The notes: generated from the letters alone by a model not told the origin. A DNA stretch of 37,539 bases from an uncultured Nitrososphaerota archaeon (GCA_934869045.1 CAKXAF010000002.1:1-37539), one strand, 5' to 3'. Counted from the first letter of the stretch, positions 4,189 to 37,539 are shown. Translations and numbers: made by a program.

Positions 4189-4409
4189 CAGGGATAGTGT
4201 TCCTCCTTGTAGCCTCACAACTGTTCCATCGCCGCGGGTGGTTCCGGGGCGGGACCCGGCCCGAAGTGTACTAAGCTGTGTCCTGACGGCTCATCTTCAG
4301 CAAGTGCTGCGCGGTCAACGATGCGTAATAGAAAGGGTGAGGAACCCTGACTACCAAAAGGAGGTTTAGCCATACCCGACAGGCCCTTCGACCTGCGTCT
4401 GCTTCAAGA

Positions 4410-4551
4410 AGGCGACAGCCGATGTTGGAGTTGGAGTTCGACGTGTTGTTGTAGTTCACGTAGAAAGGTCCGTGATTCTGGTTCTGGTTATAGTTACCGC
4501 CATGGTGCAGGCACGGGTTACCACCGTTGAAATTCCAGTTATCCGGGACAT
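4410..4551 (-). repeat. DGR template repeat (TR), non-coding
   Basis: 142 bp aligning with 4736-4877 at a constant offset of 326 (124/142 identical). In the VR frame it reads DNWNFNGGNPCLHHGGNYNQNQNHGPFYVNYNNTSNSNSNIGCRL, which is rich in AAC Asn codons as expected for a TR. Confidence 0.9.
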
Positions 4552-4629
4552 CGTCTGCTGCAAAGTTGACCCCGCGCTTTCCCCTTACCAAAGGAAAAGC
4601 GGTTTATAAGAGCGAAATCGCTCCATTTT

Positions 4630-4689
4630 GAAATTAAGAAACAGCGGAGGTTGGGGGAAGGGACTGCGGTCCCCTCACCCCAAACCCCC
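4630..4689 (-). terminator. Candidate intrinsic terminator after the DGR target gene
   Basis: A long imperfect GC-rich hairpin spans 4646-4689 (about 18 pairs, CGCA loop on the minus strand). On the minus strand it is followed by GCTGTTTCTTAATTTC. It starts 19 nt after the stop at 4708. Confidence 0.5.
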
Positions 4690-4707
4690 TCCTCGCCAGG
4701 GGAATGG

Positions 4708-20200: not shown

Positions 20201-23200
20201 GCGATGGCCTCCCAGCTCATGCTTCCCAGGGTAAAGAGCACCGGGGTCAAAACCGCCAAAGCGCTTGCGGCTACCAGCATAGCGGCGGAACCGGCCAGTG
20301 TTCCGTTCATAAAATTCAAACCGACCGCCAGCTCGGCCAGAGCGCCGCCCATGGCAACCAGGCTTTTCGCAATGGCCTCCCAGCTCATGCCCCCCATTTT
20401 TCCGAGGGCCTCCGCCAAGACATTCAGCGCCGCTCCAACTGTGACAAGCCCCGCGCCCGTGGTAATCAAGTTCTTCGGCATGGCTTTCATGGCGATCGCC
20501 ACTTCCGCCAAGGCCCCGCCCATGGCCAGCAAGCCCTTCCCGATCTCCGCCAAAAACATGCCGCCGAAGTCCGCCATCGCAGAAGCAAATATCTTCATGG
20601 CCGCGCCGATCTCAATCATGGCAAGACCAGTGGAGATAAGCCCCTGTGCATTTCCAGTCAGTTTTGTGAATGCGGTAATCTCCAAAAGGACAGCTCCAAC
20701 AGAGCTCAGCCCCTTCACCAGCTCGCCCGCATTCATCTGCCCAAAATCCTTGCAGGCGGAGGCAAAGACCTTCATAGCGCTGGCCAGAACCAGAATCCCG
20801 GCCGCAGTAGCCATGGCGCCCTTGTTGACCTTAACCGTGTTCGTGAATAGAGAAACCTCCGCCATCAGAACGCCGACTCCGGTCAAGCCCTTTGCCACCC
20901 CGGCAAAGTCCAGCTGGGCCAGGTCGATACAGGCGGAGGCAAGCATTTTGATTGCGCCGGCAAACACCACCATCTGGGCGGACCCCTTGATGACGGAGCT
21001 GGAACCGCTCCCCAAAACTTTGGCCGCAGCCACCAGCGCGGTCATCAGCCCGGCGATCCCGGCAAGGGCCACGACCATCTGCTCCGGCTCGATATCGGAG
21101 ATTTTCTTCAGGGCGGAGGCCAGCAGAAGAACTGAGGTGGAAACGCCAATCATAGCCGCAGTGCCTTTAACGACACCCTTGACTTCTCCACTAATACGAC
21201 TAAAGATGGCCATGGAAGCCATCAATTCCGCAAACAGTACGGTAATGGCGCCCAGAGAAGCGGTCAGCTTGCCGCTGTCAATCAGAGAAATGGTTACGAT
21301 CGCGGCCGCCAGCACGGCAATAGCGGAGGCGATTTTCAGAAGGGTTCCAGCCTTCAGCTGGGTCTGATAGGCTTCAAAGCAGCCCCGCACCCCGTCCAAA
21401 ATACCCTTTACATTGTCAAGAAGGCCGCCGACATCGTCGAAAGACTTTGTCAGGCTGTTCATGAACTTGGTGATGCCTACCGCGATTCCGCCCAGAGAAA
21501 TGCCGTTGAGTAAATCAATCACTCCGCTGAAATCAGCGTTGCCAATGGCGTCTATCAGCGTGGCGGACAAGCCGCCGAGCACGCCGATGATTCCGCTGGC
21601 AATGGTTTTCACGCCGTTGAACAGGCTCTGAAGCATTTGCAGGAATTTGCTGTTTCCAACGGCGGAATCCATGGTATTTACCGCATCGTCCACCCCAAAT
21701 CCCAGGCCGCCGACTGCGTCGATCACCTGGCCGATTCGGGTCTGGATGCGGCCGAGAAGCGCCTGGAACGCCTCGAAGCCGGGGATGGCAAAGACGTCGC
21801 CGAGAAACCCGATAAAGGTTTGGATTCCTGATACAACGAAACCCAGAGCATCCGCGATACCCTGGGCCACTTTACTGAAGACTTTACCTTTCTTTGCCGC
21901 GTCGTTGATGCCGGTCAGAAAATCGCCAATCGCGGCGGTCACCGTAAGAAGACCATCTGCTAGGGACCCTATGCCTCCAGCCATAGGCATGACCGCGTTG
22001 ACCACCGCCATAATTGCCTGACGGCCCAAATCCAGCATGGAAAAGAGCCCTTTGAAGGTCCGCTGCAATTTATCCGCTGTTTCATCCGAAATCGTCAACC
22101 GCTCGGAAAAGCTCCGCAGCGTCTCCGTCAGCGCGTAGAGCTGGTCGGAAGTGGCGGGCGGAAAAATATCGCGGAACGCATCCTTGATCGGGGCGATAAC
22201 GCTTACCAATCCCTTGGCCGCGTTCCAGACCGACTGGATCAGGTTCTCCCGGCCGGAGGGGCGCAGAATCTTCTCCGTAAACTCATCCATGGAGACGGAG
22301 CCATCCCGAAGACTGTCGGCCAGCGTTTCGATCTGCTCCACCATCTCCGAGGTGTATCCGGCGGCCTTGCGCTCCTCCTGGGACATGCCGGACATCTTTC
22401 CCTGGAGATGATAGACCGCCTCGGACAAGGTTTCAGAGGAGATTACTCCATCCTTCAACCCCTGCTTCAGCGCGTCAGTAAAGCTGTCCGAATCCGCTAC
22501 CAGCTGGTCAAAGGCGTCGCCGCTCTCTCTGGCGACTGCTTGGATCGACTCTATAAAACCCGCTTCATCGGCAATTCCCTGATCCAGCAGCTGTTTCCAG
22601 CCGGAACTCAAGCCGCCGCTGAGCAGTTCGTTTCTCGCCTGGGCGGACTCGCCGATGATGCCGCCGATGGTGTTGAATACTTCCGTCAACAGCGCTTTTG
22701 CCTCGTCAAAGTCGCCAACCAGAATCTCCCACGTCTCGGTCCATCCCGACTGGGCGCTCTCCTTCAAGGTGTCCCATAGCTGGGTAAAGGTTTTCACCTT
22801 CGTAGCGGCGTCCTCTGCCGTCTGTGCCATCTGGGCAATTTCCTTTGCCTGGGCCTCCGTAAAGCCCTGCTGCACCAGATCCGCCTCGGTATATGCGCCG
22901 GCAAACTGCTTCAGGGTCTCCGTGAGGACTTCCGTGGTGAGCCACTCGCCCCTGGTAAGGGATTCCCGGAAGGAACCATACATATTGATGGCATTCTGGG
23001 CTCCGGTGCCCAGCAGCTCGGATGTGCGGACCAGGGCGTCCTGGAACACCTTGCCGCCCATGCCCGCGTTGACCACCGAGTTCCAGTCCATCAGGGACAC
23101 TCTGCCTGCGGCCAGCGCCTGGGAGAGCTGATACATGGCTGTGGACGCCTGCTGGGAGGTGGAGCCGGAAATGGCGGCCAGGTTCGCGATACCCTTGATG

Positions 23201-23733: not shown

Positions 23734-24107
23734 GACCGTGTGACCTCCTTCCATGCGTAATCTGCGATCTGGTCAAAAATAGGCTGGATAGCAGGGTTGA
23801 TGTAATCTCTTCCCTGTACCCAGCCTCCGGTCCCAGTGCCATGTCCGTATTGCAGGATAATGGCAATGGGAACTCCATTTTGAACATTTGAATTGTGAAA
23901 CGAGATGGTGACGGTGTTGTCCCTGTTGGTAATTTTGTAATACCAGGACGCGGCCGTCTCTCCGGAGTCAACAGGCGTTGCAGACGCAAGGGCGGCCACG
24001 CCTTCCCGGCCAAACTTGTCCAGATCGCCGAGATGAACCGTCTCCTTTGCTCTTTCCAGAAATCGGGTCAGCTTGGAAAAATCGCCCTTGTGTCTGAAAC
24101 GAATCAC
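23730..24107 (-). CDS. HK97 gp10-like tail/head-tail joining component
   Basis: 125 aa with a GTG start 6 nt after GGGAGGAG. The pattern ..ATPVDSGETAASWYYKI......ILQYGHGT......DYINPAIQPIF resembles the HK97 gp10 family (V.tG.l..S....., .YGT, ...PF..pA). Confidence 0.6.
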   Translation of the reverse strand: MIRFRHKGDFSKLTRFLERAKETVHLGDLDKFGREGVAALASATPVDSGETAASWYYKITNRDNTVTISFHNSNVQNGVPIAIILQYGHGTGTGGWVQGRDYINPAIQPIFDQIADYAWKEVTRS

Positions 24108-28887: not shown

Positions 28888-30792
28888 TCAGGGAGTGCCG
28901 GCGCCGGAACCACCGCCGGAGCTGGCGGCCACAGGCTCCTCCAGCGCGATGGCGGAGTAGACGCGGGTCAGCGCGCCGGACAGGCGGGTCTCGATCAGGT
29001 ACTTCTGCTGGTTGAAGTCGATGTCGAACTGGTCAAACCGGGTGATCTCGCCCCCCTTGGTGGAGCCCACGGTATAGTCAGCCAGGTTGACAAAGAGGCC
29101 CAGCAGCTTGTGCTTGGTGCCCTCATCGTCCATACGGACCAGGCCCTCAAACTGCTCGGCAGTATAGAGCTCGCCGATGTTCAGGGCGGCGGCCAGGTCG
29201 GCCTTGGAGTTGTAGATGCGGCGGCCGTTCATGTCCCGGGCCAGCAGCATCACGTTCACCAGATGGGGCGTGCAGAAGAAATCGGGGGTGCCGGTGCCCT
29301 TGTACTTCTCCCGGGCATAGAGAGCGGCGGTGATGATGGCCTCGGAGTAGATGTAATTCTCGCCGAAGCTCATATCGGTCTTGCTGCCGTTGAGCTCGGC
29401 GCGGGCGGCCTCAATATCCACGTCGTAGTGGATGGTGTAGAGGTCGTTGTCGTTCCAGATGGAACGGATGTGGTCCTCGGAGATCTTCATCTCGTCGTCC
29501 GCTTCGCGGCCGTCGCCCACCATGATGGCGGTAGCCACCTCTTCGTTGAGGTTCTCCCGCATCACGGCATACTGGTACTCCACCACATCGAAATCAGTGA
29601 TGTCGACAATGTCGTCCCGGTGCAGGGCGTCGGTGCGGTACACCGTCTGAGGGTCAGTGGTCCGGGTGATGACGTTCATGTTGCCGGACAGAGTCTTGCG
29701 CTTGCCCTTCTGATAGCCGTGGGCCCGGATGGAGTCCTTGCGGGTGTCCATCTGGCGGGTACGAATGCGGCTGATGGGGCTCTTGTGGACCTTCTGCATG
29801 ACAGCAGTCACCCAGCCCTGGTCGCGGGTAACGCGCTCAGGCGCGCCGGGGCGCAGGTCCTTGAAGTCCGGGAACAGGCTCTCGATATTGTCGATGCCGT
29901 GCTTGAGCTCGTTCTGCTCAGCGTAGATCTTCAGAGCGGTCTGAAGGCTGCCCACGCTGTTGCTCTTGGCCAGAGCAAGAATGTCAGCGCGGTCGGAGTG
30001 GCTCAGAACGGTGTCCTGAGTGTCTTCGTTCTCGAAAACATTGTGCTTCATGGTCTTGTTTCCTCCCTTGGTTTTGTCAGATTTCTTGTCGGGGTCGTCG
30101 TCATCGTCGTCGCCCCCGTCCCCCTTGCCCTTCTGGGAATCCAATTCCTCCATGGCCGCGGCGATCAGGGCATACATGACCGTTCTCTGCTCCTCGGTCA
30201 TGCTGTCCACCACGTCCTGGACGGTCTTCTCATCCTCAGGCTTCTCCTCTTTTCCGTCGCCCTTGGGCTTGTCCTCCTTCTTGCCATCCTCAGAGCCGGC
30301 CTTGTGAACAAGAGGGGGTTTCTCGTCGGGGCGGAACAGGGAAATGGGCTCGTAAGCGGACAGGATCATCTCCTGCTCGCCGCCTTCGCCATGGGCCATA
30401 TCCACAAAGTCAATAAAGGCGCCGGGATTTGCCCCGGCGACCACCAGGCTGACCTCCCGGATGACGCCGTGCGTCACATCCTTGCTGGGGGTCTGCTTCA
30501 GCCCATTGGCGTAGATGGACAGGGACGCAATGTCCCCATGCTGGACCAGCATCTTGGCCGCCTTGCCGGCGTCGGTCTCGTTGAATGTGCAGTAGGCGTA
30601 AACGCCGTCCTTCCGGTTCTCCAAAAGGGCGTGGCCCAGGATGTTGCCAGGTTCGTCGTGCTGGTGGTTCCAAACCAGGGGAACCGTCTTCCCGTCGCAA
30701 TCCTCGAATGCGTTATGGCGGATGGTTCGTCCGTCCGCGCAGACAAGGTCGTTCCGGGTCGCCCAGCCACTAAAGTCATACTTCAGGTTCAT
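28888..30792 (-). CDS. Prohead protease (HK97/S78-type) fused to major capsid protein
   Basis: 634 aa. The N-terminus VPLVWNHQHDEPGNILGHALLENRKDGVYAY...HGDIASLSIYANG...VIREVSLVVAGANPGAFI is an S78 prohead protease pattern. Next comes a Lys/Asp/Glu-rich linker (..GKKEDKPKGDGKEEKPEDEK..GDGGDDDDDDPDKKSDKTKG..). The remaining ~380 aa are capsid-like. Confidence 0.75.
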   Translation of the reverse strand: MNLKYDFSGWATRNDLVCADGRTIRHNAFEDCDGKTVPLVWNHQHDEPGNILGHALLENRKDGVYAYCTFNETDAGKAAKMLVQHGDIASLSIYANGLKQTPSKDVTHGVIREVSLVVAGANPGAFIDFVDMAHGEGGEQEMILSAYEPISLFRPDEKPPLVHKAGSEDGKKEDKPKGDGKEEKPEDEKTVQDVVDSMTEEQRTVMYALIAAAMEELDSQKGKGDGGDDDDDDPDKKSDKTKGGNKTMKHNVFENEDTQDTVLSHSDRADILALAKSNSVGSLQTALKIYAEQNELKHGIDNIESLFPDFKDLRPGAPERVTRDQGWVTAVMQKVHKSPISRIRTRQMDTRKDSIRAHGYQKGKRKTLSGNMNVITRTTDPQTVYRTDALHRDDIVDITDFDVVEYQYAVMRENLNEEVATAIMVGDGREADDEMKISEDHIRSIWNDNDLYTIHYDVDIEAARAELNGSKTDMSFGENYIYSEAIITAALYAREKYKGTGTPDFFCTPHLVNVMLLARDMNGRRIYNSKADLAAALNIGELYTAEQFEGLVRMDDEGTKHKLLGLFVNLADYTVGSTKGGEITRFDQFDIDFNQQKYLIETRLSGALTRVYSAIALEEPVAASSGGGSGAGTP

Positions 30793-32032
30793 TTTGAACG
30801 TTTCCTCCTTCAGATGTTGATGGTGGCTGATTGCCCTCCTCTTTCGGGGCGCTTAGGTTGCTGTTTCGGAGCTCGTCCGCCTTGGGGTCCTTCGACGGCT
30901 TCATGCCGATCTTCTGCCGGATCTCATTGGAGGTCATGATCTCGTTGCGGGTCATCTTGTCGGCAATTTCGGCAATATCGTTGATGGGCACCAGCCGGAA
31001 CGGGTCTCTGAAGAAGAGGATCGACTGCTTCTGTGACCGAGCAGTTTTGGTGAGGAATTTCCTCTTCATTTCGTCAACAATGGCTGATAGGATCGGTTCA
31101 ATCGTCCGGTTGTCGTAATTCAGCTTCGTCCGGTCATCGGCAGTCCCGTCCAAAATCCCCTGCGTGATCCCCAACTGGCTGTAAAGCATGCTCGTCAGGT
31201 ATTCAATCTGGGACATCAGATTGTTGTCGATGGGCCGGTTCAGCTGGACCACATGCTCCGTGCCGTCGGTGTAAGCGACGCCGTACTTGGAGTCGGACAA
31301 CTGTTCCTCGATATCTTTACGGCGTTTTTCCGCCTGTTGACGCCTCGCTTCCGTCTTGATGACGTAGGGCAGCTGAATGATCAGGTTGAGTTTTCCGGAA
31401 CCGCTCTGCTCGTCGATTGCGTCCAAAATATTGAGCTTTCGGATCAACCGCTGCATGGTGGAGTTGGGCTCGTTCATCACCGCGAAAAACGGGTTCTCAA
31501 TGATGGCGACCCCGCTCTTCGGCAGGATGACATCCTGCTTCTCACCCCGGTTCTCGTTGTAGACCCGGACCTTGACGTGCTTGGGATACCACTCCACGAT
31601 TTTCCCGGTACGCATCGTTTCGATCTTGAACGAGCCGGTCTCCGGGTCGAGGTCGGTATCCGTGGGCACGATGGCCACGCATCCCTCGTCCAGCATGGAC
31701 ATGACCACGTCCTGGATAAAGGCTCGCCCGGTCTGGTCCAGATTCGCCTCCAGGGTCAGACAGCCGTTCAAACTTGAATTGATCACCTCTGTAAACCGGC
31801 CGTCGTCATCCAGGCGGACATGCTGAATCCCAATCGACGCCGCGTCCAGCGCGATCCGGTTGTAGACGGAGGTAATGATGGAGCGCTCGTTTCCCCGGCT
31901 GAAAATGGGCCGGTCCGGGCGGTAGGAGTAGCTGGGACCAAGGGAATAGCTGTACTTGAAAAACTCATTGCCTAAAAAAGCGTTCCAGGCGTGTTTCAGC
32001 CTGGAACCAACTGACATTTCCACTTTTCTCAC
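30776..32032 (-). CDS. Portal protein (by position and size)
   Basis: 418-aa ORF between terminase and protease-capsid, with its stop overlapping the capsid gene start by 17 nt. The start is ambiguous: GTG 32032 abuts the SD AGGAGG, GTG 32023 lies 8 nt after it, and ATG 32017 lies 14 nt after it. Confidence 0.65.
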   Translation of the reverse strand: MRKVEMSVGSRLKHAWNAFLGNEFFKYSYSLGPSYSYRPDRPIFSRGNERSIITSVYNRIALDAASIGIQHVRLDDDGRFTEVINSSLNGCLTLEANLDQTGRAFIQDVVMSMLDEGCVAIVPTDTDLDPETGSFKIETMRTGKIVEWYPKHVKVRVYNENRGEKQDVILPKSGVAIIENPFFAVMNEPNSTMQRLIRKLNILDAIDEQSGSGKLNLIIQLPYVIKTEARRQQAEKRRKDIEEQLSDSKYGVAYTDGTEHVVQLNRPIDNNLMSQIEYLTSMLYSQLGITQGILDGTADDRTKLNYDNRTIEPILSAIVDEMKRKFLTKTARSQKQSILFFRDPFRLVPINDIAEIADKMTRNEIMTSNEIRQKIGMKPSKDPKADELRNSNLSAPKEEGNQPPSTSEGGNVQNEPEV

Positions 32033-32035
32033 CTC

Positions 32036-32530
32036 CTACGACAGCAGATCGGCGTACATCTTCTTGAGCAGCTCGTCGTTCTGCTTCATCAAGGCCGCGA
32101 AGTCGTAAGCCGGAGGAGGCTTTGCCGCGGATGCCTGCTTTGTGGCCGAGGCAACGGTTTTTACCGTCTGCTGGACGCTGCTGCCCGGAGACGGCCCGGG
32201 AGTCCGAAGCTGGCTGACCGGCGTCGAGAAGACGGAGGCGCTCTTTTGAAGCTGCTCCACAGCCCGCTTTCCCTGCTCTGCCTTTGCGGCCAGCTCCGCC
32301 GCCTTTTTCGCCCCGTGCCGTTTTACCAGATAAGCGGTAAGAACGATTCCTGCGGCTGCCGCCGCTCCCACGGCCGCTTTTCCGGCTGCGGGCAGCTTCT
32401 TCCGCTCGGGTCCATCCTCACCGCCGTACCGTTTCCGGCCCTGGGGCGTCAAGCTTCCGTCCTTCTGCTGAAATCTCCGCACGCCCCACTTCATCCCACG
32501 GATGCCGTAGTGCTGCAAAACATCTGACAA
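32036..32530 (-). CDS. HYG-x-GMKWGVRR-motif protein D (one central TM segment)
   Basis: 164 aa with a TTG start 9 nt after TAGGAGG. The N-terminus is MSDVLQHYGIRGMKWGVRRFQQKDGSLTPQGRKRYG, and the hydrophobic segment is AAVGAAAAAGIVLTAYLV. Confidence 0.7.
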   Translation of the reverse strand: MSDVLQHYGIRGMKWGVRRFQQKDGSLTPQGRKRYGGEDGPERKKLPAAGKAAVGAAAAAGIVLTAYLVKRHGAKKAAELAAKAEQGKRAVEQLQKSASVFSTPVSQLRTPGPSPGSSVQQTVKTVASATKQASAAKPPPAYDFAALMKQNDELLKKMYADLLS

Positions 32531-32595
32531 TCGCGGTCACCTCCTATCTGTGATAAAATTTGTAACAACTGTCCCGTGTGTATCTAATTTAGGTC

Positions 32596-32631
32596 AAAAA
32601 AAAAACCACAGACCCGGTTAAGAGTCTGTGG
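32596..32631 (-). terminator. Rho-independent terminator (8-bp stem + T10) on the minus strand
   Basis: The minus strand reads CCACAGACtcttaaccggGTCTGTGG followed by TTTTTTTTTT (plus-strand A10 at 32596-32605). Confidence 0.75.
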
Positions 32632-32648
32632 TGAGGCGTTTCGCCGCT

Positions 32649-32677
32649 TTGACAGGGCGAATGCTGTGTAGTATAAT
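32649..32677 (+). promoter_or_regulatory. Consensus sigma-70/SigA-type promoter on the plus strand
   Basis: TTGACA (32649-32654), a 17-nt spacer, then TATAAT (32672-32677). Both hexamers are perfect consensus. It lies in a lower-GC 500-bp gap. Confidence 0.7.
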
Positions 32678-32690
32678 GCGGTAAAAAGTG

Positions 32691-32733
32691 GCCGCCAGTA
32701 ACGTTCGAGTGCAAGTCAGACATTACTGGCGGC
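32691..32733 (+). promoter_or_regulatory. 5' leader stem-loop of the moron transcript
   Basis: GCCGCCAGTAA (32691-32701) pairs perfectly with TTACTGGCGGC (32723-32733), giving an 11-bp stem and a 21-nt loop. It begins about 7 nt after the predicted transcription start. Confidence 0.5.
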
Positions 32734-32757
32734 GCAGTGGAAAGAAGGACGGAGAAT

Positions 32758-32910
32758 ATGAAACCCAATGAAAAGACAACAATCCTCGATCACAACACCC
32801 TATTCGATCTCGCCGTTAAATCCGCTTATGTCATAGCAAAAACATTGGATGAACGGTATGCCGATAGGGATCGGTCGGAAGTCACGCCGGTTATTCACTG
32901 GTATCATTGA
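32758..32910 (+). CDS. 50-aa moron ORF, unknown function
   Basis: Below the ORF-track size cut-off. Manual translation gives MKPNEKTTILDHNTLFDLAVKSAYVIAKTLDERYADRDRSEVTPVIHWYH*. GAAGGAcGGAG lies upstream of the ATG. It is flanked by the consensus promoter and a plus-strand terminator. Confidence 0.55.
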   Translation: MKPNEKTTILDHNTLFDLAVKSAYVIAKTLDERYADRDRSEVTPVIHWYH

Positions 32911-32922
32911 TTCCGATAGGAG

Positions 32923-32956
32923 GAGGGCGGCGCCATGCCGCTCTCTTTTCTTCTTT
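32923..32956 (+). terminator. Rho-independent terminator of the moron (plus strand)
   Basis: GAGGGCGGC-gccat-GCCGCTCTC (9 pairs including one G-U) is followed by TTTTCTTCTTT. Confidence 0.65.
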
Positions 32957-32961
32957 CCTGT

Positions 32962-32984
32962 AAAAACCGATGGTCGACCATCGG
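32962..32984 (-). terminator. Minus-strand terminator after motif protein C
   Basis: An 18-bp perfect palindrome CCGATGGTCGACCATCGG (32967-32984) is followed on the minus strand by TTTTT (32962-32966). It lies 50 nt after the stop at 33035. Confidence 0.6.
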
Positions 32985-33034
32985 AAATTACCAAATGTAG
33001 TCATAAGATCCGCAGGGCCCGGTTAAAAACTGCG

Positions 33035-33589
33035 TCAATGAGCATAGTACGCCCGCAGCTTTCTGTTCTCGCTGATGGCCTTTCCAGCGAGCAAAGCGTT
33101 CACGATTGTTCCGCCCACTGCGATAGCTGAGCCCGCAAGTTGTGCCGTCCGCTGGTCTTCCATCCCTTTGGATAAGAGTGAACTTACCGCATAGGAACCA
33201 ACTACTATGGCCGTTTCCGCTAAATAAGCAGTTCGGGTATTCCCGGTAATGGTCTTGCCGCGCTGATAAAGTTTCTTGCCTTCATCCGCTAACTTGTCGG
33301 TCTTCAGTTTACCATAGGCATCTTCCATCCGACGTTTTTCGGTTTTGACGGCCCGATTAGCGTCCTTGACCTGCTGCCGGGTAGCCTGCCCGGATTTATG
33401 GGCGGCTTTCGTTTCTACCGCTTTTGATTTGGCACGTTCATAGTCCGATTCGGCTTTGCGATAGCGCTCCAGTCCTTTTCGGGTATAGGAACCGTCATAG
33501 TTCTGATAACGCCTAACGCCCCATTTCATGCCTTTGATGCCGTAATGGGCAAGGCAATCCTGGGGAGAAGGTTTCTCATAGGGCTTCAT
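33035..33589 (-). CDS. HYG-x-GMKWGVRR-motif protein C (two C-terminal hydrophobic segments)
   Basis: Track ORF 33035-33619 begins at a TTG inside the A8G10 tract. ATG 33589, 6 nt after the G-run, is preferred. The motif reads LAHYGIKGMKWGVRRYQNYDGSYTRKGLERY, and the hydrophobic segments are TAIVVGSYAVSSLL and LAGSAIAVGGTIVNALLAG. Confidence 0.7.
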   Translation of the reverse strand: MKPYEKPSPQDCLAHYGIKGMKWGVRRYQNYDGSYTRKGLERYRKAESDYERAKSKAVETKAAHKSGQATRQQVKDANRAVKTEKRRMEDAYGKLKTDKLADEGKKLYQRGKTITGNTRTAYLAETAIVVGSYAVSSLLSKGMEDQRTAQLAGSAIAVGGTIVNALLAGKAISENRKLRAYYAH

Positions 33590-33595
33590 AAGTAT

Positions 33596-33613
33596 CCCCC
33601 CCCCCTTTTTTTT
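33596..33613. repeat. Homopolymer tract C10T8 (minus strand A8G10) at the terminase / protein C junction
   Basis: C x10 at 33596-33605 and T x8 at 33606-33613. The terminase TAA stop (33612-33614) overlaps the A-run. The G-run is the only SD-like element for ATG 33589. Confidence 0.9.
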
Positions 33614-35360
33614 ACTCAAATGCTTCCGGGTTGTGTTTATAGGCGACGTAGGCGTCCATCATGGCCGCCACCGCGTCGATCTTCTGGTCAGACCGCTTTT
33701 TCAGCAGCTTACGGTTGCCGTTGGTGTCCTCCATCGTGATGCAGTTGCCCATAGAGAAGGTGATTAAGTCCTCGTCAAAGAGCAGCATCCGCTCTCCGGC
33801 CAGCTTCTTCAGCTCGCCCAGGGGGACGGATTCCGTTCTCGCGCCCTGCCGGACCACCTCGACCCCAAACGGGCCGTTCTCATTGACCCAGCGTTCCACA
33901 AATTCCTTGGCGTTGTAGGGGTCATATCCAAAGCAGCGCACATCGTAGCCGCAGTTGATGATGTGGTCGTCCAGATCCTCATAGACCTGCATCATGTCGA
34001 GAACTGTCCCCTCCATAACGATCAGGCTGCCCTCTGCCATAAAGTCCTCGTACTTGACCCGCATGGCCGCCGGGAGCTTATGGAGCGTCACCGATGTGAT
34101 GTAGTTGCGCGACTTAACGCCAAAGGAACCATCCCGAAGAGGGAACAGGAACGTAAAGGAGCAGAAGTCGTCGCCCTGGGAGAGATCGGCGCCCATGGAG
34201 CAGGGCATCTGCCAAAACCGCTGCCGGCGGTGTGGCAAAGTCTCCTCGTAGGTGAAGTAGTAGGTGTACCCCTCCATAGGGAGGCCGAACCGCTTTGCCA
34301 GCATGTCATTCCGCGTGGCGGGGGCGGTTTCCGCCCGATCCACATCCTTCTGATAGGTCTCATAGGTGACGGTCTTTCCCAGATTCGGGTTGGCCTTGGG
34401 CCACATATCGGGGTAGGCCACCTCCTCAACGGAGTCCAGCTTGTACCACCAGATGGAAACATGTTCCTGCGGAGGACCGATGCCCTGGAGAATGTTCATC
34501 AGCTCCATTTTGATGGTATCGCCAGCGCCGTTGCGGACTGTACCCTCGGAGCTGGTGGCTATAATAAGGTAGTCGTCCAGCTTGGAGGCGCCCTGTTCCA
34601 CCGCGCCGATGACGTCCTCCCGGGCGTCGGCGGAGGACAGCCACTCGTCCACGGTAGCCACTTTGCAGCGCAGACCCTGGAGCTTGTCCACCGACATAGG
34701 ACGGATTTCGACCAGGGAGCCTGAAATGAAATTCTCAATGCCCTTCTTGGTAGAGGCCAGCTTCACCCGGTTGGCCCGGGACCCGGTGGTGTTCTGCAAA
34801 GACCCCTCGGTCATGAACTGGAAGACGGGGCCTCTGGCCCGGGTGATGGCGGTCTTGATGGGGTTGATGATCTCCTCGGCCTGCTTCATGGTGGGGGCCG
34901 TGGTGATCTGATGGGTGGTGGAACCGTCCACAACGCAAAAGTATGCCTGAATGCAGGAATCGTAGAGCGACTTCGCCGCACCCCGTCCCACGATCAGGTA
35001 CTGCTTTTTGGTCAGCCGCTGCTTGATCCGCTTGGTCACATAGCGTCCGCCTCTGCCGTCCGGATTGGGCACATAGACAGAGCGGTCGTCGAAATAGTAC
35101 CAGCCAAACACCTGTTCCCCCCAAAGCTTGAAGGTGTCCAGAAGATGCAGGTCGGAACCATCGGTCAGGGTCAGCTCGTTCTCGCAGAACTCGATCCAGC
35201 CCTCTACCGCCCTGTCGTCATAGTAGTAGCTAGGCGACTCGATCAGCCGGTCGATCCGGTACATCTCCATGGCAACTTCCTTGCAGACCGGAATATCGCC
35301 GCGGATGACCGCATCGCGGAATGCGCCGTAGTAACGGGGGACGGCGGTGTTGGATAACAT
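33612..35360 (-). CDS. terL: Terminase large subunit
   Basis: 582 aa. It has a Walker A-like LIVGRGAAKS, a Walker B-like KVATVDEWLSS, and a C-terminal nuclease-type region (..CFGYDPYNAKEF..QKIDAVAAMMDAYVAY). Confidence 0.9.
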   Translation of the reverse strand: MLSNTAVPRYYGAFRDAVIRGDIPVCKEVAMEMYRIDRLIESPSYYYDDRAVEGWIEFCENELTLTDGSDLHLLDTFKLWGEQVFGWYYFDDRSVYVPNPDGRGGRYVTKRIKQRLTKKQYLIVGRGAAKSLYDSCIQAYFCVVDGSTTHQITTAPTMKQAEEIINPIKTAITRARGPVFQFMTEGSLQNTTGSRANRVKLASTKKGIENFISGSLVEIRPMSVDKLQGLRCKVATVDEWLSSADAREDVIGAVEQGASKLDDYLIIATSSEGTVRNGAGDTIKMELMNILQGIGPPQEHVSIWWYKLDSVEEVAYPDMWPKANPNLGKTVTYETYQKDVDRAETAPATRNDMLAKRFGLPMEGYTYYFTYEETLPHRRQRFWQMPCSMGADLSQGDDFCSFTFLFPLRDGSFGVKSRNYITSVTLHKLPAAMRVKYEDFMAEGSLIVMEGTVLDMMQVYEDLDDHIINCGYDVRCFGYDPYNAKEFVERWVNENGPFGVEVVRQGARTESVPLGELKKLAGERMLLFDEDLITFSMGNCITMEDTNGNRKLLKKRSDQKIDAVAAMMDAYVAYKHNPEAFE

Positions 35361-35378
35361 CGGTTCACCAGCCTCCCG

Positions 35379-36263
35379 TTACAGCCCCAGCGCTTTTCTG
35401 CCAAGGAGAACCAGGGTGGAGAACTTCTGCTCGCTCAGCTTTGTCCGGTAGGTATCTTTTGGAATAACCTGCTCCATGTCGAACACGATGATGGGCGATT
35501 TGGCCTTGAAACCGCCGTAAATGGCGTCGTTCGTGTCAAGGAGCGCGCCGTAGCCCGCCTTTTTGCATTCGTTAAAAAACTTGGTGCGCTGGACATAGAC
35601 GTCATGCCCCTTCCATCGGTCACCCTGTCCGTCATATGGAATCACATAATTGAACATCCGATAGACTGTCTGGAGATCTTTGGCCGAGGGCGTATAGTCC
35701 GGGTCCTTCATCCTTTCCAACACTGCGGCAGCTTCCCGATACCCCTTGAATTTGTACTTGTCTTTCACGAAATAGCTCTGCATCCGGTCCTTATCCGTTA
35801 CAAAGTTATAAAAATCCCGATCTTTTCGATAGAGATTCATGAAGACCTCTGCGCCGGAGTCCTCGCTCGCCACCTTCAAGTCAGTTTTAAGCGAGTTGTC
35901 GATCCGGTACTTCATAAACGCGCCGGTTCCGATTTGCTTCCCATTCTTGTCATATACCGGCTGCGGGATCGGCCGGTTGAACAGTGCGTTATACTGGTGC
36001 TTGTCCAGGGAATTGTGGGTTGCGTAGAACATATCGGTGTTCTTGGTCCGGTCCTTGTCATAGGACAACGTGCTCAGGGTCGTCTTATCGGCGTTCAGCA
36101 CTTCGTCAAAGTGCTTCTTGTTGTAGATACTGTTGCCGCTCTTCCGCTTATTGCGGATGGCTTTTTTCTGAGCCGGAGTGTAGTCGCCGCCCCGCAGGGG
36201 ATAGGGAGGACCGTTCCGAACGCCCCACTTCTGTTTCAGAATTCCATGGTGATACAGTTCCAT
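35379..36263 (-). CDS. Divergent HYG-motif protein B with a ~250-aa globular C-terminal domain of unknown function
   Basis: The track ORF starts at TTG 36269; ATG 36263 is preferred. The N-terminus is MELYHHGILKQKWGVRNGPPYPLRGGDYTPAQKK. It lies immediately upstream of terL. Confidence 0.65.
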   Translation of the reverse strand: MELYHHGILKQKWGVRNGPPYPLRGGDYTPAQKKAIRNKRKSGNSIYNKKHFDEVLNADKTTLSTLSYDKDRTKNTDMFYATHNSLDKHQYNALFNRPIPQPVYDKNGKQIGTGAFMKYRIDNSLKTDLKVASEDSGAEVFMNLYRKDRDFYNFVTDKDRMQSYFVKDKYKFKGYREAAAVLERMKDPDYTPSAKDLQTVYRMFNYVIPYDGQGDRWKGHDVYVQRTKFFNECKKAGYGALLDTNDAIYGGFKAKSPIIVFDMEQVIPKDTYRTKLSEQKFSTLVLLGRKALGL

Positions 36264-36269
36264 AAACAA

Positions 36270-36785
36270 CTACCCCCGCAATTCCTTGATTGCAAGGGCA
36301 ATGCTCAGGGAAGACCCTGCGATCGCCAGAACGCTTCCCGCCACTTCCAGCGTATCCCGCAATGCCTGCCGCCCTTTGGAAACCTGAGCCGGGGAGGTGT
36401 TCGCGAACAGCTGATTGTATTGCCGCTCCAGAAGTTCCCGGTTGATCTTATCCCGCATCTCCTTGTCGGTCATCTTGCTCAGATCCATCCGTTTCGGAGC
36501 TGGCTTGGACGTGCTGGTCTGCTCCAGCTTTTTCATCTCCTTCACCAGATCCGAGCTGGAGTCGACGGTTTTCTTGGTCCGCTCCAGGTCCTCCTTAGCC
36601 CAGCGCTTCGGGTCCGGGTTGGACAGGTCGATGCGGTTCTCCTTCTTCTTGGCCGCATTTTCCCGCTTATCCCGGTCATAGCGTTTTTCACCGGCGGCGG
36701 TCAGGGTGCCGTCTTTGTTCTGGTAGCGGCGGACGCCCCACTTCATGCCTTTGATGCCGTAGTGCAGGAGCATGCTATTCTCCAT
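36270..36785 (-). CDS. HYG-x-GMKWGVRR-motif protein A (C-terminal TM anchor)
   Basis: 171 aa, ATG 9 nt after GGAGG. The N-terminus is MENSMLLHYGIKGMKWGVRRYQNKDGTLTAAGEKRYD, and the C-terminus is LEVAGSVLAIAGSSLSIALAIKELRG. Confidence 0.7.
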   Translation of the reverse strand: MENSMLLHYGIKGMKWGVRRYQNKDGTLTAAGEKRYDRDKRENAAKKKENRIDLSNPDPKRWAKEDLERTKKTVDSSSDLVKEMKKLEQTSTSKPAPKRMDLSKMTDKEMRDKINRELLERQYNQLFANTSPAQVSKGRQALRDTLEVAGSVLAIAGSSLSIALAIKELRG

Positions 36786-37161
36786 TTTGACTTTCCTCCT
36801 TCCCGCTGGTGTTCTTCACGGGGTCCGCTGCAATAAAAAGCCGCCACTCAAACTCGCTGATCTGCCGGTTGATGGACTCAATGGCAGCGGAGCTGAGAGG
36901 CGGGTCGAATAACAACCGAACCTTCATGTAAACGTAGGATTTGACTAAGGAAAAGATGTTCGGCTTATCCTGAATAAATCCGGACCAGATTTCATCTTTT
37001 CCTGAGATTGAGAAACCGTTGGCAGGTCCAACGCCCATTTGCGTCAGGATGGAAAACACGCTGTTGATGTGGATGATAATGTCCGGGTCAAAGTGCGTGT
37101 AGCTCTCGTCGATGCCCAACAGTTTCTTGATGGATATCAGGATGCTTTCGGAAATCTCCAT
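36775..37161 (-). CDS. gp6-like head-tail connector / putative DNA-packaging family protein
   Basis: 128 aa, ATG 5 nt after GAGGAGG. The pattern SIKKLLGIDESYTHFDPDIIIHINSVFSILTQMGVGP...VKSYVYMKVRLLFDPPLSSAAIESINRQISEFEWRL matches my memory of Phage_connect_1-type proteins. Confidence 0.55.
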   Translation of the reverse strand: MEISESILISIKKLLGIDESYTHFDPDIIIHINSVFSILTQMGVGPANGFSISGKDEIWSGFIQDKPNIFSLVKSYVYMKVRLLFDPPLSSAAIESINRQISEFEWRLFIAADPVKNTSGKEESQNGE

Positions 37162-37171
37162 AACAGCCTCC

Positions 37172-37384
37172 TCACCGGCGGACTGCGATGAACTTCTTCA
37201 TGCAGTACCCCTGGGTGCCATTGGAGGTCGATACTTTATAGAAAGCATCTGTTGACTCGTCTATATTGACGGAAACTCTGGTCAGAGCCGTAATGACTGT
37301 AAGGACTTTGGAATTTGCTCTCGGCTCTTGATAAAGCGCCGCTCTCAGGCAATTCGTCACAACACCGGCAGCATGATTCTCCAT
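37172..37384 (-). CDS. Small hypothetical protein (possible SH3b-like fold)
   Basis: The track ORF is trimmed to ATG 37384 (MENHAAGVVTNCLRAALYQEPRANSKVLTVI...FYKVSTSNGTQGYCMKKFI), which has GAGGAGG 7 nt upstream. The fold guess is weak. Confidence 0.5.
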   Translation of the reverse strand: MENHAAGVVTNCLRAALYQEPRANSKVLTVITALTRVSVNIDESTDAFYKVSTSNGTQGYCMKKFIAVRR

Positions 37385-37539
37385 ATCGAATCCTCCTCGT
37401 ATAATAAGTTTCAAAGTTAATAGTTTCAGGTATCAGCAGGCTTTGAGGTGCCCGTGATACAATAGCTGTAGGACAGCAGGGTCAAGTTCTGAGTCCTCCG
37501 GTTGAGCCGTAAGGCTACTTCACTGAAAGTCTGTTCCCC

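What the first reader, a model, noticed from the sequence alone, without database searches (positions are those of the whole stretch)
32036..36785. Four-member paralog family with a shared N-terminal HYG-I-K-GMKWGVRRYQ-x-DG motif bracketing terminase and portal
Proteins A (36270-36785), B (35379-36263), C (33035-33589) and D (32036-32530) all begin with the same ~30-aa module. A reads LLHYGIKGMKWGVRRYQNKDGTLTAAGEKRY. C reads LAHYGIKGMKWGVRRYQNYDGSYTRKGLERY. D reads LQHYGIRGMKWGVRRFQQKDGSLTPQGRKRY. B is divergent, LYHHGILKQKWGVRNGPPYPLRGGDY. After the module they diverge completely. A, C and D carry Lys/Glu-rich helices plus one or two hydrophobic segments, and B has a ~250-aa globular domain. 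The motif-coding DNA is also similar (A versus C is 41/48 identical over CACTACGGCATCAAAGG...CAGAAC). The four occupy positions where small terminase, scaffold or minor head genes are normally found. A conserved N-terminal tag on variable cargo is reminiscent of capsid-targeting sequences of phage internal/ejected proteins (the T4 IP precedent), but that is speculation. I cannot assign the motif to a characterised family.
Basis: partly seen in the sequence, partly recalled or inferred. Interest (0 to 1): 0.7.

Follow-up and report, generated by a model that had tools for sequence, protein, structure and literature searches.

The report
Shared docking tag on phage head-module proteins
Four neighbouring prophage genes share a ~35-residue N-terminal module (Pfam DUF7211, function unknown) that marks a large, variable set of very basic accessory proteins encoded around the terminase and portal genes of one widespread phage head type. 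It most likely acts as an address tag that brings them into the capsid, but no experiment shows this yet.

Summary
A, B, C and D are late-operon genes of a Flavonifractor-type prophage. Three hit Pfam DUF7211 (PF23847, E 1e-10 to 1e-12); B is a divergent copy. The module is not a local duplication: a profile of it finds 33,132 protein clusters.

In about 150 phage and prophage loci from Clostridia, Bacilli and Actinobacteria phages the layout is constant: connector, 0-4 DUF7211 genes, large terminase, 0-5 DUF7211 genes, portal, capsid-protease fusion. Each genome has 1-7 such genes. In some phages they are fused into "polyproteins" of 2-5 units, each headed by the module.

An A-type unit is nearly universal (97 of 106 complete loci) and a B-type domain is common. 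Other cargos are variable: hydrophobic or glycine-zipper helices, GNAT, glutamine-deamidase toxin, 2H phosphoesterase, HExxH, HTH. 99% of the proteins are net basic. A hydrophobic-K-H-S-D-hydrophobic element precedes internal modules and resembles conserved sites in the capsid-protease linker.

Best reading (confidence about 0.4): a docking module that loads variable internal or ejected proteins into the procapsid, analogous to T4 capsid-targeting sequences and MuF toxins. No virion data or published function exists. The small-terminase, scaffold and membrane readings remain open.

The parts
36270..36785 (-). Gene A, 171 aa. This is the core 'A-type' DUF7211 protein: N-terminal module, Lys/Glu-rich helices, a conserved LSxMSDxEL...RxxLExxY helix, and a C-terminal Gly/Ala/Ser-rich hydrophobic helix (aa 148-166).
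   Evidence: ORF. Pfam DUF7211 41.7 bits. 95% identical to a Flavonifractor plautii protein. The A-tail profile is found in 97/106 complete loci. AF2 gives an all-helical model, pLDDT 71. The start overlaps the connector gene by 11 nt.
36678..36770 (-). DUF7211 module of A (aa 6-36, LLHYGIKGMKWGVRRYQNKDGTLTAAGEKRY).
   Evidence: In the AF2 model it is mostly coil with a small hairpin and the start of a helix, pLDDT 63-81.
35379..36263 (-). Gene B, 294 aa. It carries a divergent module (LYHHGILKQKWGVRNGPPYPL) plus a conserved 'B-type' domain of about 250 aa that ends in GYGALLDTNDA...SPIIVFD.
   Evidence: The B-type domain occurs in 27 viral loci and in the actinophage proteins Fazel gp16 and HazuAndZazu gp8. 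It has no Pfam family, no informative PDB match and no fold match.
36165..36257 (-). Divergent DUF7211 module of B (aa 3-33).
   Evidence: Alignment. The local profile matches aa 1-41. It is below Pfam detection.
33035..33619 (-). Gene C, 184 aa from ATG 33589 or 194 aa from TTG 33619. It has the module, a coiled-coil-like Lys/Glu stretch and two hydrophobic Gly-rich helices.
   Evidence: Pfam DUF7211 47.5 bits. Hydropathy. C-type cargo occurs in 8 loci.
33461..33553 (-). DUF7211 module of C (LAHYGIKGMKWGVRRYQNYDGSYTRKGLERY).
32036..32530 (-). Gene D, 164 aa, TTG start. It has the module, one hydrophobic helix (aa 51-69), an Ala/Ser/Pro-rich region and an A-tail-like C-terminus. Its stop lies 3 nt before the portal start.
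   Evidence: Pfam DUF7211 40.0 bits.. D-type cargo occurs in 10 loci.
32426..32518 (-). DUF7211 module of D (LQHYGIRGMKWGVRRFQQKDGSLTPQGRKRY).
33612..35360 (-). Large terminase (context; flanked by the DUF7211 genes).
   Evidence: Pfam TerL_nuclease 9.4e-32 and TerL_ATPase; phrog_9.
30776..32032 (-). Portal protein (context; candidate docking partner).
   Evidence: Pfam Phage_portal 4.2e-17; phrog_12.
28888..30792 (-). Prohead protease (S78) fused to the major capsid protein. The acidic linker holds conserved His sites at H134, H250, H265 and H298. It is a candidate docking partner and processing enzyme.
   Evidence: phrog_3270 2.2e-216 and Peptidase_S78. Linker conservation. The junction-derived matrix lands on H250, H265 and H134.
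36775..37161 (-). Phage_connect_2 protein. It opens the conserved block connector > DUF7211 genes > TerL.
   Evidence: Pfam PF24829 1.1e-37; phrog_4247 'virion structural protein'. It holds the same position in about 150 loci.

Best explanation
DUF7211 is a short, portable docking module of about 31-37 residues: L-x-H-[HY]-G-[IV]-[KL]-G-[MQ]-K-W-G-V-R-R-[YF]-Q-N-x-D-G-[ST]-L-T-x-A-G-x-K-R-Y. It belongs to one lineage of HK97-type siphovirus head modules: a TerL of about 581 aa, a PF04860 portal, and an S78 protease fused to the capsid protein.

Proposed mechanism, all inferred:
1. The module binds a common site in the assembling procapsid. Candidates are the portal vertex or the acidic protease-capsid linker that acts as an internal scaffold.
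2. This recruits a genome-specific set of strongly basic accessory proteins into the head: one near-universal A-type protein plus variable cargos.
3. Where the units are encoded as one polyprotein, the capsid-embedded prohead protease would cut them apart at hydrophobic-K-H-S-D-hydrophobic sites upstream of each module.
4. After DNA packaging the basic proteins would stay with the DNA and leave with it at infection. The Gly-zipper and hydrophobic members would act at the host membrane. The enzymatic members (GNAT, glutamine deamidase, 2H phosphoesterase, zincin-like, HTH) would act on host targets or defences.

Shown: the family, its size, its genomic architecture, its polyprotein forms, its cargo diversity, its basic charge, its translational coupling to head genes, and the junction element.

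Inferred: binding to the procapsid, proteolytic processing, presence in virions, and ejection.
For: 1. The module is the only part shared by otherwise unrelated proteins, and it is extremely conserved across two phyla. Synonymous sites have diverged. This points to selection on a common interaction.

2. Genomic coupling is strict. In 78 viral loci, 76 genome loci and the actinophages Scap1, Eevee, Fazel, HazuAndZazu and the Faecalibacterium phage Oengus, DUF7211 genes lie between the connector, TerL and portal of the same head-module type. They are on the same strand. In the window they have gaps of -11 to +22 nt, which indicates late-operon co-expression.

3. The copy number is variable (1-7 genes in 106 complete loci) around a near-universal A-type (97/106). 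This is a core-plus-accessory pattern.

4. Polyprotein forms exist. The top 150 of 33,132 matching clusters carry 2-5 modules at spacings of 150-400 aa, nearly always with one module at or near the N-terminus. P0241 (1335 aa, 5 units, including B-like and C/D-like units) occupies exactly the TerL-to-portal slot.

5. A junction element, hydrophobic-K-H-S-[DA]-hydrophobic, occurs 5-26 residues before 36% of 198 internal modules, against 2.8% of background windows. A matrix built from it picks the three conserved His sites of the protease-capsid linker (H250, H265, H134). 141 of 183 top hits fall in the linker, which makes up 28% of the length.

6. 99% of 409 distinct DUF7211 proteins are net basic, median +6.8 per 100 aa. 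The cargo alone is +5.8. TerL, portal, capsid and connector are all acidic. T4 internal proteins are likewise basic, variable between phages and tagged by an N-terminal capsid-targeting sequence (PMC9026906).

7. The cargo includes toxin and effector-type domains:
- Gln_amidase in 4 of 149 proteins and GNAT in about 6 of 149.
- LigT/2H phosphoesterase in Fazel gp13.
- An HExxH motif in HazuAndZazu gp10.
- HTH/sigma-70 region 4 in P0280.

8. In L145 a DUF7211 unit is fused to the C-terminus of the portal ORF. From general knowledge of portal structures, that end faces the capsid interior.

9. AF2 models the module as a largely unstructured motif or hairpin rather than a globular domain, as expected for a docking peptide.
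Against: - There are no virion proteomics, no structure and no genetics for any member. No paper mentions DUF7211, and there is no PDB relative of the module, connector or capsid fusion.
- All loci sampled were chosen by closeness to this window's motif. The strict association with one head-module type may therefore be partly a sampling effect.
- Motif copies show almost no genome-specific co-variation: 0.591 identity within genomes against 0.560 between genomes, while orthologues reach 0.717. There is thus no co-evolution signal pointing to a partner.
- With the H and S columns masked, the junction matrix no longer finds the capsid linker: 33/183 hits. The shared-cleavage-site idea therefore rests on a very short pattern.
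- A profile-profile comparison of the module with the capsid fusion is not significant.
- Hydrophobic helices could equally mean that the proteins reside in the producer cell's membrane.
- The L145 fusion is a single case and could be a frameshift.
Confidence: 0.4

Rival explanations
1. Packaging-factor reading. The A-type protein, possibly with B, is the missing small terminase or another DNA-packaging accessory. The basic, aromatic module would bind DNA, TerL or the portal. The other paralogs would be derived copies that kept the binding module.
For: - No small terminase is recognisable in the window, in 10 genes upstream of the connector in the close relative L008, or in the annotated isolates.
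- The A-type gene lies immediately upstream of TerL, the classical TerS position, in most loci (94 of 123 A-tail hits). It is the only DUF7211 gene in Scap1 and in 20 complete loci.
- Its size (130-190 aa), long helices and strong positive charge fit a DNA-binding oligomer.
- One polyprotein carries HTH domains that also hit TerS models weakly.
Against: - A, B, C and D have no HTH or TerS Pfam/NCBIfam hit.
- The A-type gene lies downstream of TerL in 29 cases, and in many loci TerL directly follows the connector.
- This reading does not explain 1-7 paralogs with enzymes, toxin domains and hydrophobic helices, nor 5-unit polyproteins.
Confidence: 0.15
2. Scaffold or assembly-core reading. DUF7211 proteins are internal assembly factors needed to build or size the procapsid. 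They would bind through the module and then be degraded or expelled before or during packaging. They would not be delivered effectors.
For: - The lineage has no separate scaffold gene.
- The A-type protein is near-universal, helical and rich in Lys and Glu, like scaffolding proteins.
- The proteins are basic and so complement the acidic protease-capsid linker.
- Candidate protease sites are present.
- In T4 the internal protein IPIII also influences head assembly (PMC9026906).
Against: - A variable copy number and unrelated cargos, including GNAT, deamidase toxin and phosphoesterase, are not expected of scaffolds.
- The capsid fusion already carries a scaffold-like linker.
- One locus found in two samples has a frameshifted A gene and no other DUF7211 gene. 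This could be a sequencing error or a defective prophage.
Confidence: 0.15
3. Membrane reading. The hydrophobic members (A, C, D types) are inner-membrane proteins of the producer cell. They might be membrane anchors for head assembly, or lysis or exclusion factors. The module would be a cytoplasmic juxta-membrane interaction domain.
For: - A, C and D have hydrophobic 19-mers with Kyte-Doolittle scores of 1.4-2.0.
- The family medians of the maximum 19-residue hydrophobicity are 1.55-1.83.
- Pfam Gly-zipper and ETRAMP-like hits occur in relatives.
- The flanking positive charge fits the positive-inside rule.
Against: - Many members have no hydrophobic segment: the B-type, the enzyme cargos, and Scap1 gp06 and Fazel gp13, whose tails are amphipathic.
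- The positive charge extends over whole cargos rather than only next to the helices.
- The genes are embedded in the head operon, whereas a true independently transcribed moron sits between C and D with its own promoter and terminator.
- There are no PADLOC hits apart from coiled-coil noise.
Confidence: 0.12
4. Chance similarity or a recent, genome-restricted duplication with no functional meaning.
For: None beyond the high local DNA identity of A versus C (41/48).
Against: - Pfam E-values are 1e-10 to 1e-12.
- 33,132 clusters match the module profile.
- The family is present in actinophages and Clostridia phages.
- Synonymous codons have diverged.
Confidence: 0.01

Closest known systems
Pfam PF23847 (DUF7211)
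   Same: A, C and D score 40-47.5 bits against this 25-position model, whose gathering score is 27. Relatives in public databases are labelled 'DUF7211 domain-containing protein'.
   Different: The Pfam entry is a family of unknown function, and no paper in the searched library mentions it. The features documented here are not attached to any description I could find: the multi-paralog layout, the polyproteins, the head-module restriction, the basic cargo and the junction element. The conserved module is also longer (about 31-37 aa, plus an optional upstream hydrophobic-K-H-S-D-hydrophobic element) than the 25-aa model. B is too divergent for the model.
T4 capsid-targeting sequences on internal proteins (IPI, IPII, IPIII, Alt)
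   Same: Both have a short shared N-terminal signal on otherwise unrelated, basic, poorly conserved proteins, some of them enzymes. In T4 these are loaded into the prohead core, processed by the prohead protease and ejected with the DNA (PMC9026906). Here there is a shared module, 99% basic proteins, enzyme cargos, a head-encoded protease and candidate cleavage sites.
   Different: There is no sequence relationship. The T4 sequence is about 10 residues, is removed at an L/I-x-E site and binds the gp22 scaffold core. DUF7211 is about 35 residues, is conserved across phyla, also occurs internally and repeatedly in single polypeptides, and belongs to a siphovirus head with a protease-capsid fusion. 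Its packaging, cleavage and ejection are untested.
MuF (SPP1 gp7-like) minor head proteins and MuF polymorphic toxins
   Same: Both are a conserved head-module-encoded domain joined to variable C-terminal toxin or effector domains, encoded next to the portal gene of temperate siphoviruses that are common in gut Firmicutes. SPP1 gp7 binds the portal and is present at 1-2 copies per capsid (PMC5576092). Some DUF7211 proteins carry a glutamine-deamidase toxin domain.
   Different: No MuF domain (PF04233 or PF06152) was detected in A-D or elsewhere in the block. The portal gene is directly followed by the capsid fusion gene, so there is no MuF slot. DUF7211 is a roughly 35-aa motif rather than a MuF-sized domain. 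It comes in 1-7 genes per genome and as tandem units.
Polyvalent proteins of phages and conjugative elements (Iyer et al. 2017; recalled from memory, not read here)
   Same: Both are very long proteins that concatenate several independent effector-like units. Polyvalent proteins are proposed to travel with the DNA into the recipient cell and to be processed into pieces.
   Different: In DUF7211 chains a repeated address module heads every unit, and most units have no known enzymatic domain. No polyvalent-protein-associated Pfam domains were hit.
Encapsulin cargo-loading peptides (recalled from memory)
   Same: Conceptually both are a short Gly-rich, hydrophobic and basic peptide that targets diverse cargo to the interior of an HK97-fold shell.
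   Different: Encapsulin peptides are about 10 residues, usually C-terminal, and there is no sequence similarity. This is purely an analogy, and binding of DUF7211 to the capsid protein is untested.

Membership tests
Pfam DUF7211 (PF23847) | Score at or above the curated gathering threshold (27 bits) of the family HMM. | tested here: met
   A scores 41.7 bits, C 47.5 and D 40.0. B has no Pfam hit and belongs only by alignment (11 invariant columns), by the local profile and by shared PHROGs 7502 and 32444.
T4-type capsid-targeting-sequence internal proteins | An N-terminal propeptide that is necessary and sufficient for incorporation into the prohead. | not testable with these tools
   This needs reporter-fusion packaging experiments. 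Only the shared N-terminal module is shown here.
T4-type capsid-targeting-sequence internal proteins | Removal of the targeting peptide by the prohead protease at a defined site (L/I-x-E in T4). | tested here: inconclusive
   No L/I-x-E consensus follows the module. A different candidate site, hydrophobic-K-H-S-D-hydrophobic, lies upstream of internal modules (36% against 2.8% background). It resembles conserved sites in the protease-capsid linker. Cleavage itself is untested.
T4-type capsid-targeting-sequence internal proteins | Small, basic proteins that are variable between related phages. | tested here: met
   99% of 409 proteins are net positive, median +6.8 per 100 aa. There are 1-7 genes per locus and 44 singleton or doubleton cargo types.
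T4-type capsid-targeting-sequence internal proteins | Presence in mature virions and ejection into the host. | not testable with these tools
   No proteomic data were found.
MuF / SPP1 gp7 minor head proteins and MuF polymorphic toxins | Presence of a MuF domain (PF04233 Phage_Mu_F or PF06152). | tested here: not met
   A Pfam scan of A-D and neighbours at E up to 1 gave no MuF hit. Scans of 149 relatives also gave none.
MuF / SPP1 gp7 minor head proteins and MuF polymorphic toxins | A conserved head-associated N-terminal part plus a variable C-terminal toxin domain, encoded beside the portal gene. | tested here: met
   This is architectural analogy only. Gln_amidase, GNAT, 2H phosphoesterase and HExxH cargos lie behind or around the module, next to the portal gene.
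Small terminase subunit | An N-terminal HTH DNA-binding domain or a match to a TerS family model. | tested here: not met
   A-D have no TerS or HTH hit in Pfam or NCBIfam. AF2 of A shows no HTH fold in the module.
Small terminase subunit | A gene immediately upstream of TerL, one per genome. | tested here: inconclusive
   The A-type gene is upstream of TerL for 94 A-tail hits and downstream for 29. In several loci TerL directly follows the connector. No other TerS candidate was found.

The most novel reading that the evidence does not exclude
DUF7211 is a general, phylum-spanning cargo-loading signal for phage capsids. Any protein, or string of proteins, that carries the ~35-residue module would be loaded into the procapsid of this head lineage, released from polyprotein precursors by the capsid-fused protease, and injected with the genome. 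This would give thousands of Gram-positive phages a plug-and-play slot for membrane-active pilot proteins and anti-host or anti-defence enzymes. It would also give engineers a ready-made packaging tag.
Probability: 0.3. Interest if true: 0.8.

Novelty: new variant of a known kind. Interest (0 to 1): 0.6.

Why it matters
If the module is a capsid-loading signal, it would define one of the largest sets of phage-injected proteins known. More than 33,000 protein clusters match it, in gut Clostridia prophages and soil actinophages.

It would explain the function of nearly every unannotated gene between terminase and portal in this lineage. It would also point to new injected anti-defence or host-takeover enzymes: GNAT, glutamine deamidase, 2H phosphoesterase and zincin-like proteins.

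A roughly 35-residue tag could be used to load proteins into phage capsids. Cultured phages that carry the module (Streptomyces, Gordonia, Arthrobacter, Curtobacterium, Faecalibacterium) make this directly testable.

If instead the A-type protein is the missing small terminase or a scaffold, that would fill an annotation gap for a very common head module.

Tried and rejected
- **Literature.** DUF7211 occurs in no paper. Searches for virion proteomics of Arthrobacter, Faecalibacterium and Microbacterium phages found nothing about these genes.
- **Solved structures.** The module profile matches nothing in the PDB, even at E up to 10. The connector and capsid fusion have no solved relatives. B's only hit, a PFU domain at E 0.03, is treated as chance.
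- **Structure of B.** The model has pLDDT 49.8. The Foldseek search of the PDB gave no match with E below 0.5, so no fold is assigned.
- **Structure of A.** The model is extended helices with pTM 0.27. The BFVD search returned only uncharacterised members of the same family.
- **Does the module mimic the capsid N-terminal region (L-x-H-G-I at residue 296-300)?** hhalign gave probability 1.5% and P 0.033, so this is rejected.
- **Do motif copies co-vary within a genome, as expected for co-evolution with a partner?** The effect is very small: 0.591 against 0.560, with 2 of 500 permutations reaching it. It is confounded by relatedness and is not used as evidence.
- **Stand-alone 40-80 aa 'module-only' proteins.** The one case examined in a long contig is a frameshifted A gene. 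These are therefore not taken as evidence for an autonomous mini-protein.
- **C's PADLOC and NCBIfam hits (JetC, TIGR02680).** These are coiled-coil composition matches.
- **Third homologous-protein search, with the module alignment.** It returned only short fragments and added little.
- **Flanks-only version of the junction matrix.** It does not find the capsid linker, so the shared-site argument is kept weak.

Full report
**Observation**

The four ORFs are present on the minus strand as described:
- A: 36270-36785.
- B: 35379-36263. Homologues are 294-295 aa, which supports the ATG start.
- C: 33035-33589, or up to 33619 with a TTG start.
- D: 32036-32530.

They sit in a tight late operon. 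The order is connector (Phage_connect_2, 36775-37161), A, B, TerL (33612-35360), C, D, portal (30776-32032), then the S78 protease-major capsid fusion (28888-30792). Gaps are -11 to +22 nt, except for 504 nt between C and D.

The shared module is real. A, C and D share 14-16 of 17 core residues, and B shares 9 of 17. Eleven columns are invariant in all four.

Only 9 of 16 identical residues use identical codons. The similarity is therefore maintained by selection on the peptide, not by recent copying.

A, C and D carry hydrophobic Gly/Ala/Ser-rich 19-mers (Kyte-Doolittle 1.4-2.0). B has none. All four are strongly basic, with net charge +12 to +18.

**What the module is**

A, C and D hit Pfam PF23847 (DUF7211, a 25-position model) at 40-47.5 bits, against a 27-bit cut-off. 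Fourteen PHROG families share the motif, almost all of unknown function. NCBIfam and PADLOC add nothing. No paper in the library mentions DUF7211.

The window is about 95% identical at protein level to a Flavonifractor plautii prophage.

A profile of the four window modules, searched against 1.84 billion representative proteins, found 33,132 clusters at E of 1e-3 or better and 20,590 at 1e-10 or better. This is a very large family, not a local curiosity.

**Architecture across phages**

The same motif occurs in cultured actinophages:
- Streptomyces phage Scap1 gp06.
- Curtobacterium phage Eevee gp11, gp14 and gp15 (two copies in gp15).
- Gordonia phage Fazel gp13, gp15, gp16 and gp17.
- Streptomyces phage HazuAndZazu gp6, gp8, gp9, gp10 and gp11.

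It also occurs in Faecalibacterium phage Oengus. In Fazel and HazuAndZazu every otherwise unannotated gene between TerL and portal carries it.

I examined 78 IMG/VR loci and 76 loci from GTDB genomes. The order is essentially invariant: connector, 0-4 DUF7211 genes, TerL (about 581 aa), 0-5 DUF7211 genes, portal (about 420 aa), protease-capsid fusion (about 600 aa). Nearly all of these genes are on one strand.

Of 106 loci containing connector, TerL and portal, 20 have a single DUF7211 gene and the rest have 2-7.

Hosts named in isolate genomes are Clostridia, for example Clostridium leptum DSM 753 and Faecalibacterium tardum, and the phage isolates infect Actinobacteria. So all cultured hosts are Gram-positive. 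Odd MAG labels (Bacteroidaceae, Methanosphaera and others) are probably binning errors.

These loci were selected by similarity to this window's motif. The exclusivity of the association is therefore not proven.

**Core and accessory members**

I clustered the cargo parts.
- An A-type tail is the dominant type. It has a conserved LSxMSDxEL...RxxLExxY helix plus a C-terminal Gly-rich hydrophobic or amphipathic helix.
- A profile of the A-type tail hits 97 of 106 complete loci, almost always inside a DUF7211 ORF. The hits lie upstream of TerL 94 times and downstream 29 times.
- Scap1 gp06, Eevee gp11, HazuAndZazu gp6, the C-terminal half of Fazel gp13 and Oengus gp (215 aa) are A-type.
- B-type cargo is second most common (27 viral loci). 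It is conserved in actinophages, in Fazel gp16 and HazuAndZazu gp8, and ends in GYDAILDDNDA...PMILL. It has no Pfam family.
- C- and D-types are found in 8 and 10 loci. Forty-four cargo clusters are singletons or doubletons.

Among 149 high-scoring relatives most cargo has no Pfam match. The recurrent exceptions are:
- GNAT acetyltransferases (about 6 proteins).
- 'Papain fold toxin 1, glutamine deamidase' (4 proteins).
- HTH/sigma-70 region 4 (2 proteins).
- CW_7 and Gly-zipper.

Fazel gp13 places a LigT/2H phosphoesterase in front of an internal module at residue 351. HazuAndZazu gp10 has an HExxH motif.

**Polyproteins and a junction element**

The best-scoring relatives are proteins of 300-1569 aa with 2-5 modules spaced 150-400 aa apart. 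A module nearly always lies at or near the N-terminus.

P0241 (1335 aa, five units) contains B-like and C/D-like units. It fills the TerL-to-portal slot. P0280 (three units, HTH cargo) ends directly before the portal gene in a locus that begins with the end of a TerL-like ORF.

So the same units are encoded either as separate genes, as in this window, or as one chain.

A hydrophobic-K-H-S-[D/A]-hydrophobic element lies 5-26 residues upstream of 36% of 198 internal modules, against 2.8% of background windows. It also occurs in long N-terminal leaders, for example HazuAndZazu gp11.

The protease-capsid fusions have conserved His sites in the acidic linker between the protease and capsid domains:
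- [AK]-H134-[GS]-[ED], with His in 100% of sequences.
- K-H250-N, with His in 75%.
- L-x-H265-S-[DE], with His in 98%.

A matrix built only from the polyprotein junctions places 141 of 183 top hits in that linker, which is 28% of the length. The hits concentrate on H250, H265 and H134.

I read this as a hint that the capsid-embedded protease cuts both substrates. The signal depends on the His-Ser core, because the flanks-only matrix fails. Cleavage is not shown.

**Physical properties**

99% of 409 distinct DUF7211 proteins are net basic, with a median of +6.8 per 100 aa. The cargo alone is +5.8. TerL (-2.6), portal (-1.4), capsid fusion (-5.9) and connector (-7.1) are acidic.

AF2 of A used 147 aligned sequences and gave pLDDT 71 and pTM 0.27. 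The model is a chain of helices. The module is mostly coil, with a small hairpin around YQNKDGTL and the start of a helix at TAAGEKRY. This fits a docking motif that folds on a partner, not an enzyme.

There is one natural fusion of a DUF7211 unit to the C-terminus of a portal ORF, in L145. Another locus has a unit between the portal and the capsid gene (L076).

**Interpretation**

These facts are best explained by a docking or address module that brings a variable set of basic proteins into the procapsid of this head lineage. The A-type protein would be an obligatory member and the others exchangeable cargo. The whole would parallel three known systems:
- T4's capsid-targeting sequences on variable basic internal proteins (PMC9026906).
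- Portal-bound MuF proteins with variable toxin domains (PMC5576092).
- Polyvalent proteins (recalled from memory).

I put this at about 0.4. Binding partner, processing, presence in virions and ejection are all inferred.

The main rivals are as follows.
- **The A-type protein is the unrecognised small terminase or a packaging factor.** No TerS is detectable anywhere in this lineage, and A usually sits in the TerS position. This does not explain the paralogs, the enzymes or the polyproteins.
- **The proteins are scaffold or assembly-core components.**
- **The hydrophobic members are producer-cell membrane proteins.**
- **Chance or recent duplication.** This is excluded.

**Comparison with known systems and novelty**

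Membership in Pfam DUF7211 is met for A, C and D, and for B by alignment only. Membership in the MuF, TerS or T4 internal-protein families is not met by sequence. The resemblance is functional and architectural.

The domain itself is catalogued. Its genomic logic, polyprotein organisation, charge signature and candidate processing sites appear undescribed.

I rate it a new variant of a known kind (virion-internal protein targeting), with interest 0.6. It is not categorically new, and the mechanism is unproven. But the family is very large, restricted to a definable head type, and testable in cultured phages.

**Things that led nowhere**

These are listed under 'tried and rejected': PDB and fold searches, the B structure, the capsid-mimicry idea, within-genome co-variation, and 'module-only' mini-proteins, which are frameshift fragments.

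Noticed in passing
window 32605-32984 (gap between C and D): An independent plus-strand cassette is inserted in the minus-strand late operon. It has a perfect sigma-70-type promoter TTGACA-17-TATAAT (32649-32677), a 50-aa ORF with a good ribosome-binding site (about 32761-32910, MKPNEKTTILDHNTLFDL...), and a terminator (32919-32949). It is flanked by minus-strand terminators at 32984-32967 and 32632-32605. It looks like a moron. The small protein has no PADLOC hit, and no Rfam family reaches threshold in the gap.
   Followed up: partly
window 3013-7446 (minus strand): This is a diversity-generating retroelement. It comprises a reverse transcriptase (3013-4218, RVT_1), an Rfam RT-18 RNA (4203-4309, 68.5 bits), a template repeat at about 4410-4551, and a variable repeat at about 4736-4877 at the 3' end of a 912-aa Big_3-containing ORF (4708-7446). 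The two repeats are about 87-90% identical, and within the repeat the differences fall at template adenines.
   Followed up: yes
window 28888-30792 (protease-capsid fusion), residues 125-300: The acidic linker between the S78 protease domain and the capsid domain carries invariant or near-invariant His sites (H134, H250, H265, H298) in 61 relatives. H-[SNG]-[DEAVF] is 4.2 times denser there than in the rest of the protein. These are candidate maturation cleavage sites, and no published specificity is known to me.
   Followed up: partly
window 36775-37161 and about 150 related loci: The Phage_connect_2 / 'virion structural protein' gene always lies upstream of TerL rather than after the capsid gene. 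It is preceded by lysis genes: SH3_3 at window 37172-37414, and endolysin or holin in Scap1, Fazel and HazuAndZazu. No small terminase is recognisable in the window, in annotated isolates or in 10 upstream genes of relative L008.
   Followed up: partly
L145 9182-10834: The portal ORF is 551 aa instead of about 420 aa. Its C-terminal 130 aa are a DUF7211 unit with the B-like variant HHGIKGQKWGVQNGPPYPI. This is either a natural portal-cargo fusion or a frameshift. In L076 a separate DUF7211 gene lies between the portal and the capsid gene.
   Followed up: no
L087 8001-9131: The A-type gene is broken into three frames, giving a 56-aa module fragment, a middle piece and a 72-aa tail. A 195-aa opposite-strand gene with a C-terminal hydrophobic helix lies between it and TerL. 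The same state is seen in two samples. It could be a pseudogene, a programmed frameshift or an assembly error.
   Followed up: partly
window 35379-36263; L084 8799-9635; L085 4599-5627: The B-type cargo domain (signature ...K[KA]GY[DG]A[IL][LV]D..DA......P[IL]I[VL]F...) is conserved from Clostridia prophages to Gordonia and Streptomyces phages. It has no Pfam, NCBIfam or PDB relative, so it is an undescribed conserved phage domain.
   Followed up: partly
window 14206-23754 (minus strand): There is a single 3182-aa ORF in the tail region, presumably an unusually long tape-measure protein. The relative L089 has an ORF of more than 2179 aa that hits TMP_3. It was not analysed.
   Followed up: no
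L093, L110, L114, L119, L127, L129, L138, L149 (GTDB genome contigs): Contigs carrying this Gram-positive-type phage head module are binned into MAGs labelled Bacteroidaceae, Parabacteroides, Desulfovibrionaceae, Tannerellaceae, Sphaerochaetaceae, Saccharibacteria, Burkholderiaceae and even Methanosphaera. These are most likely mis-binned phage contigs.
   Followed up: no
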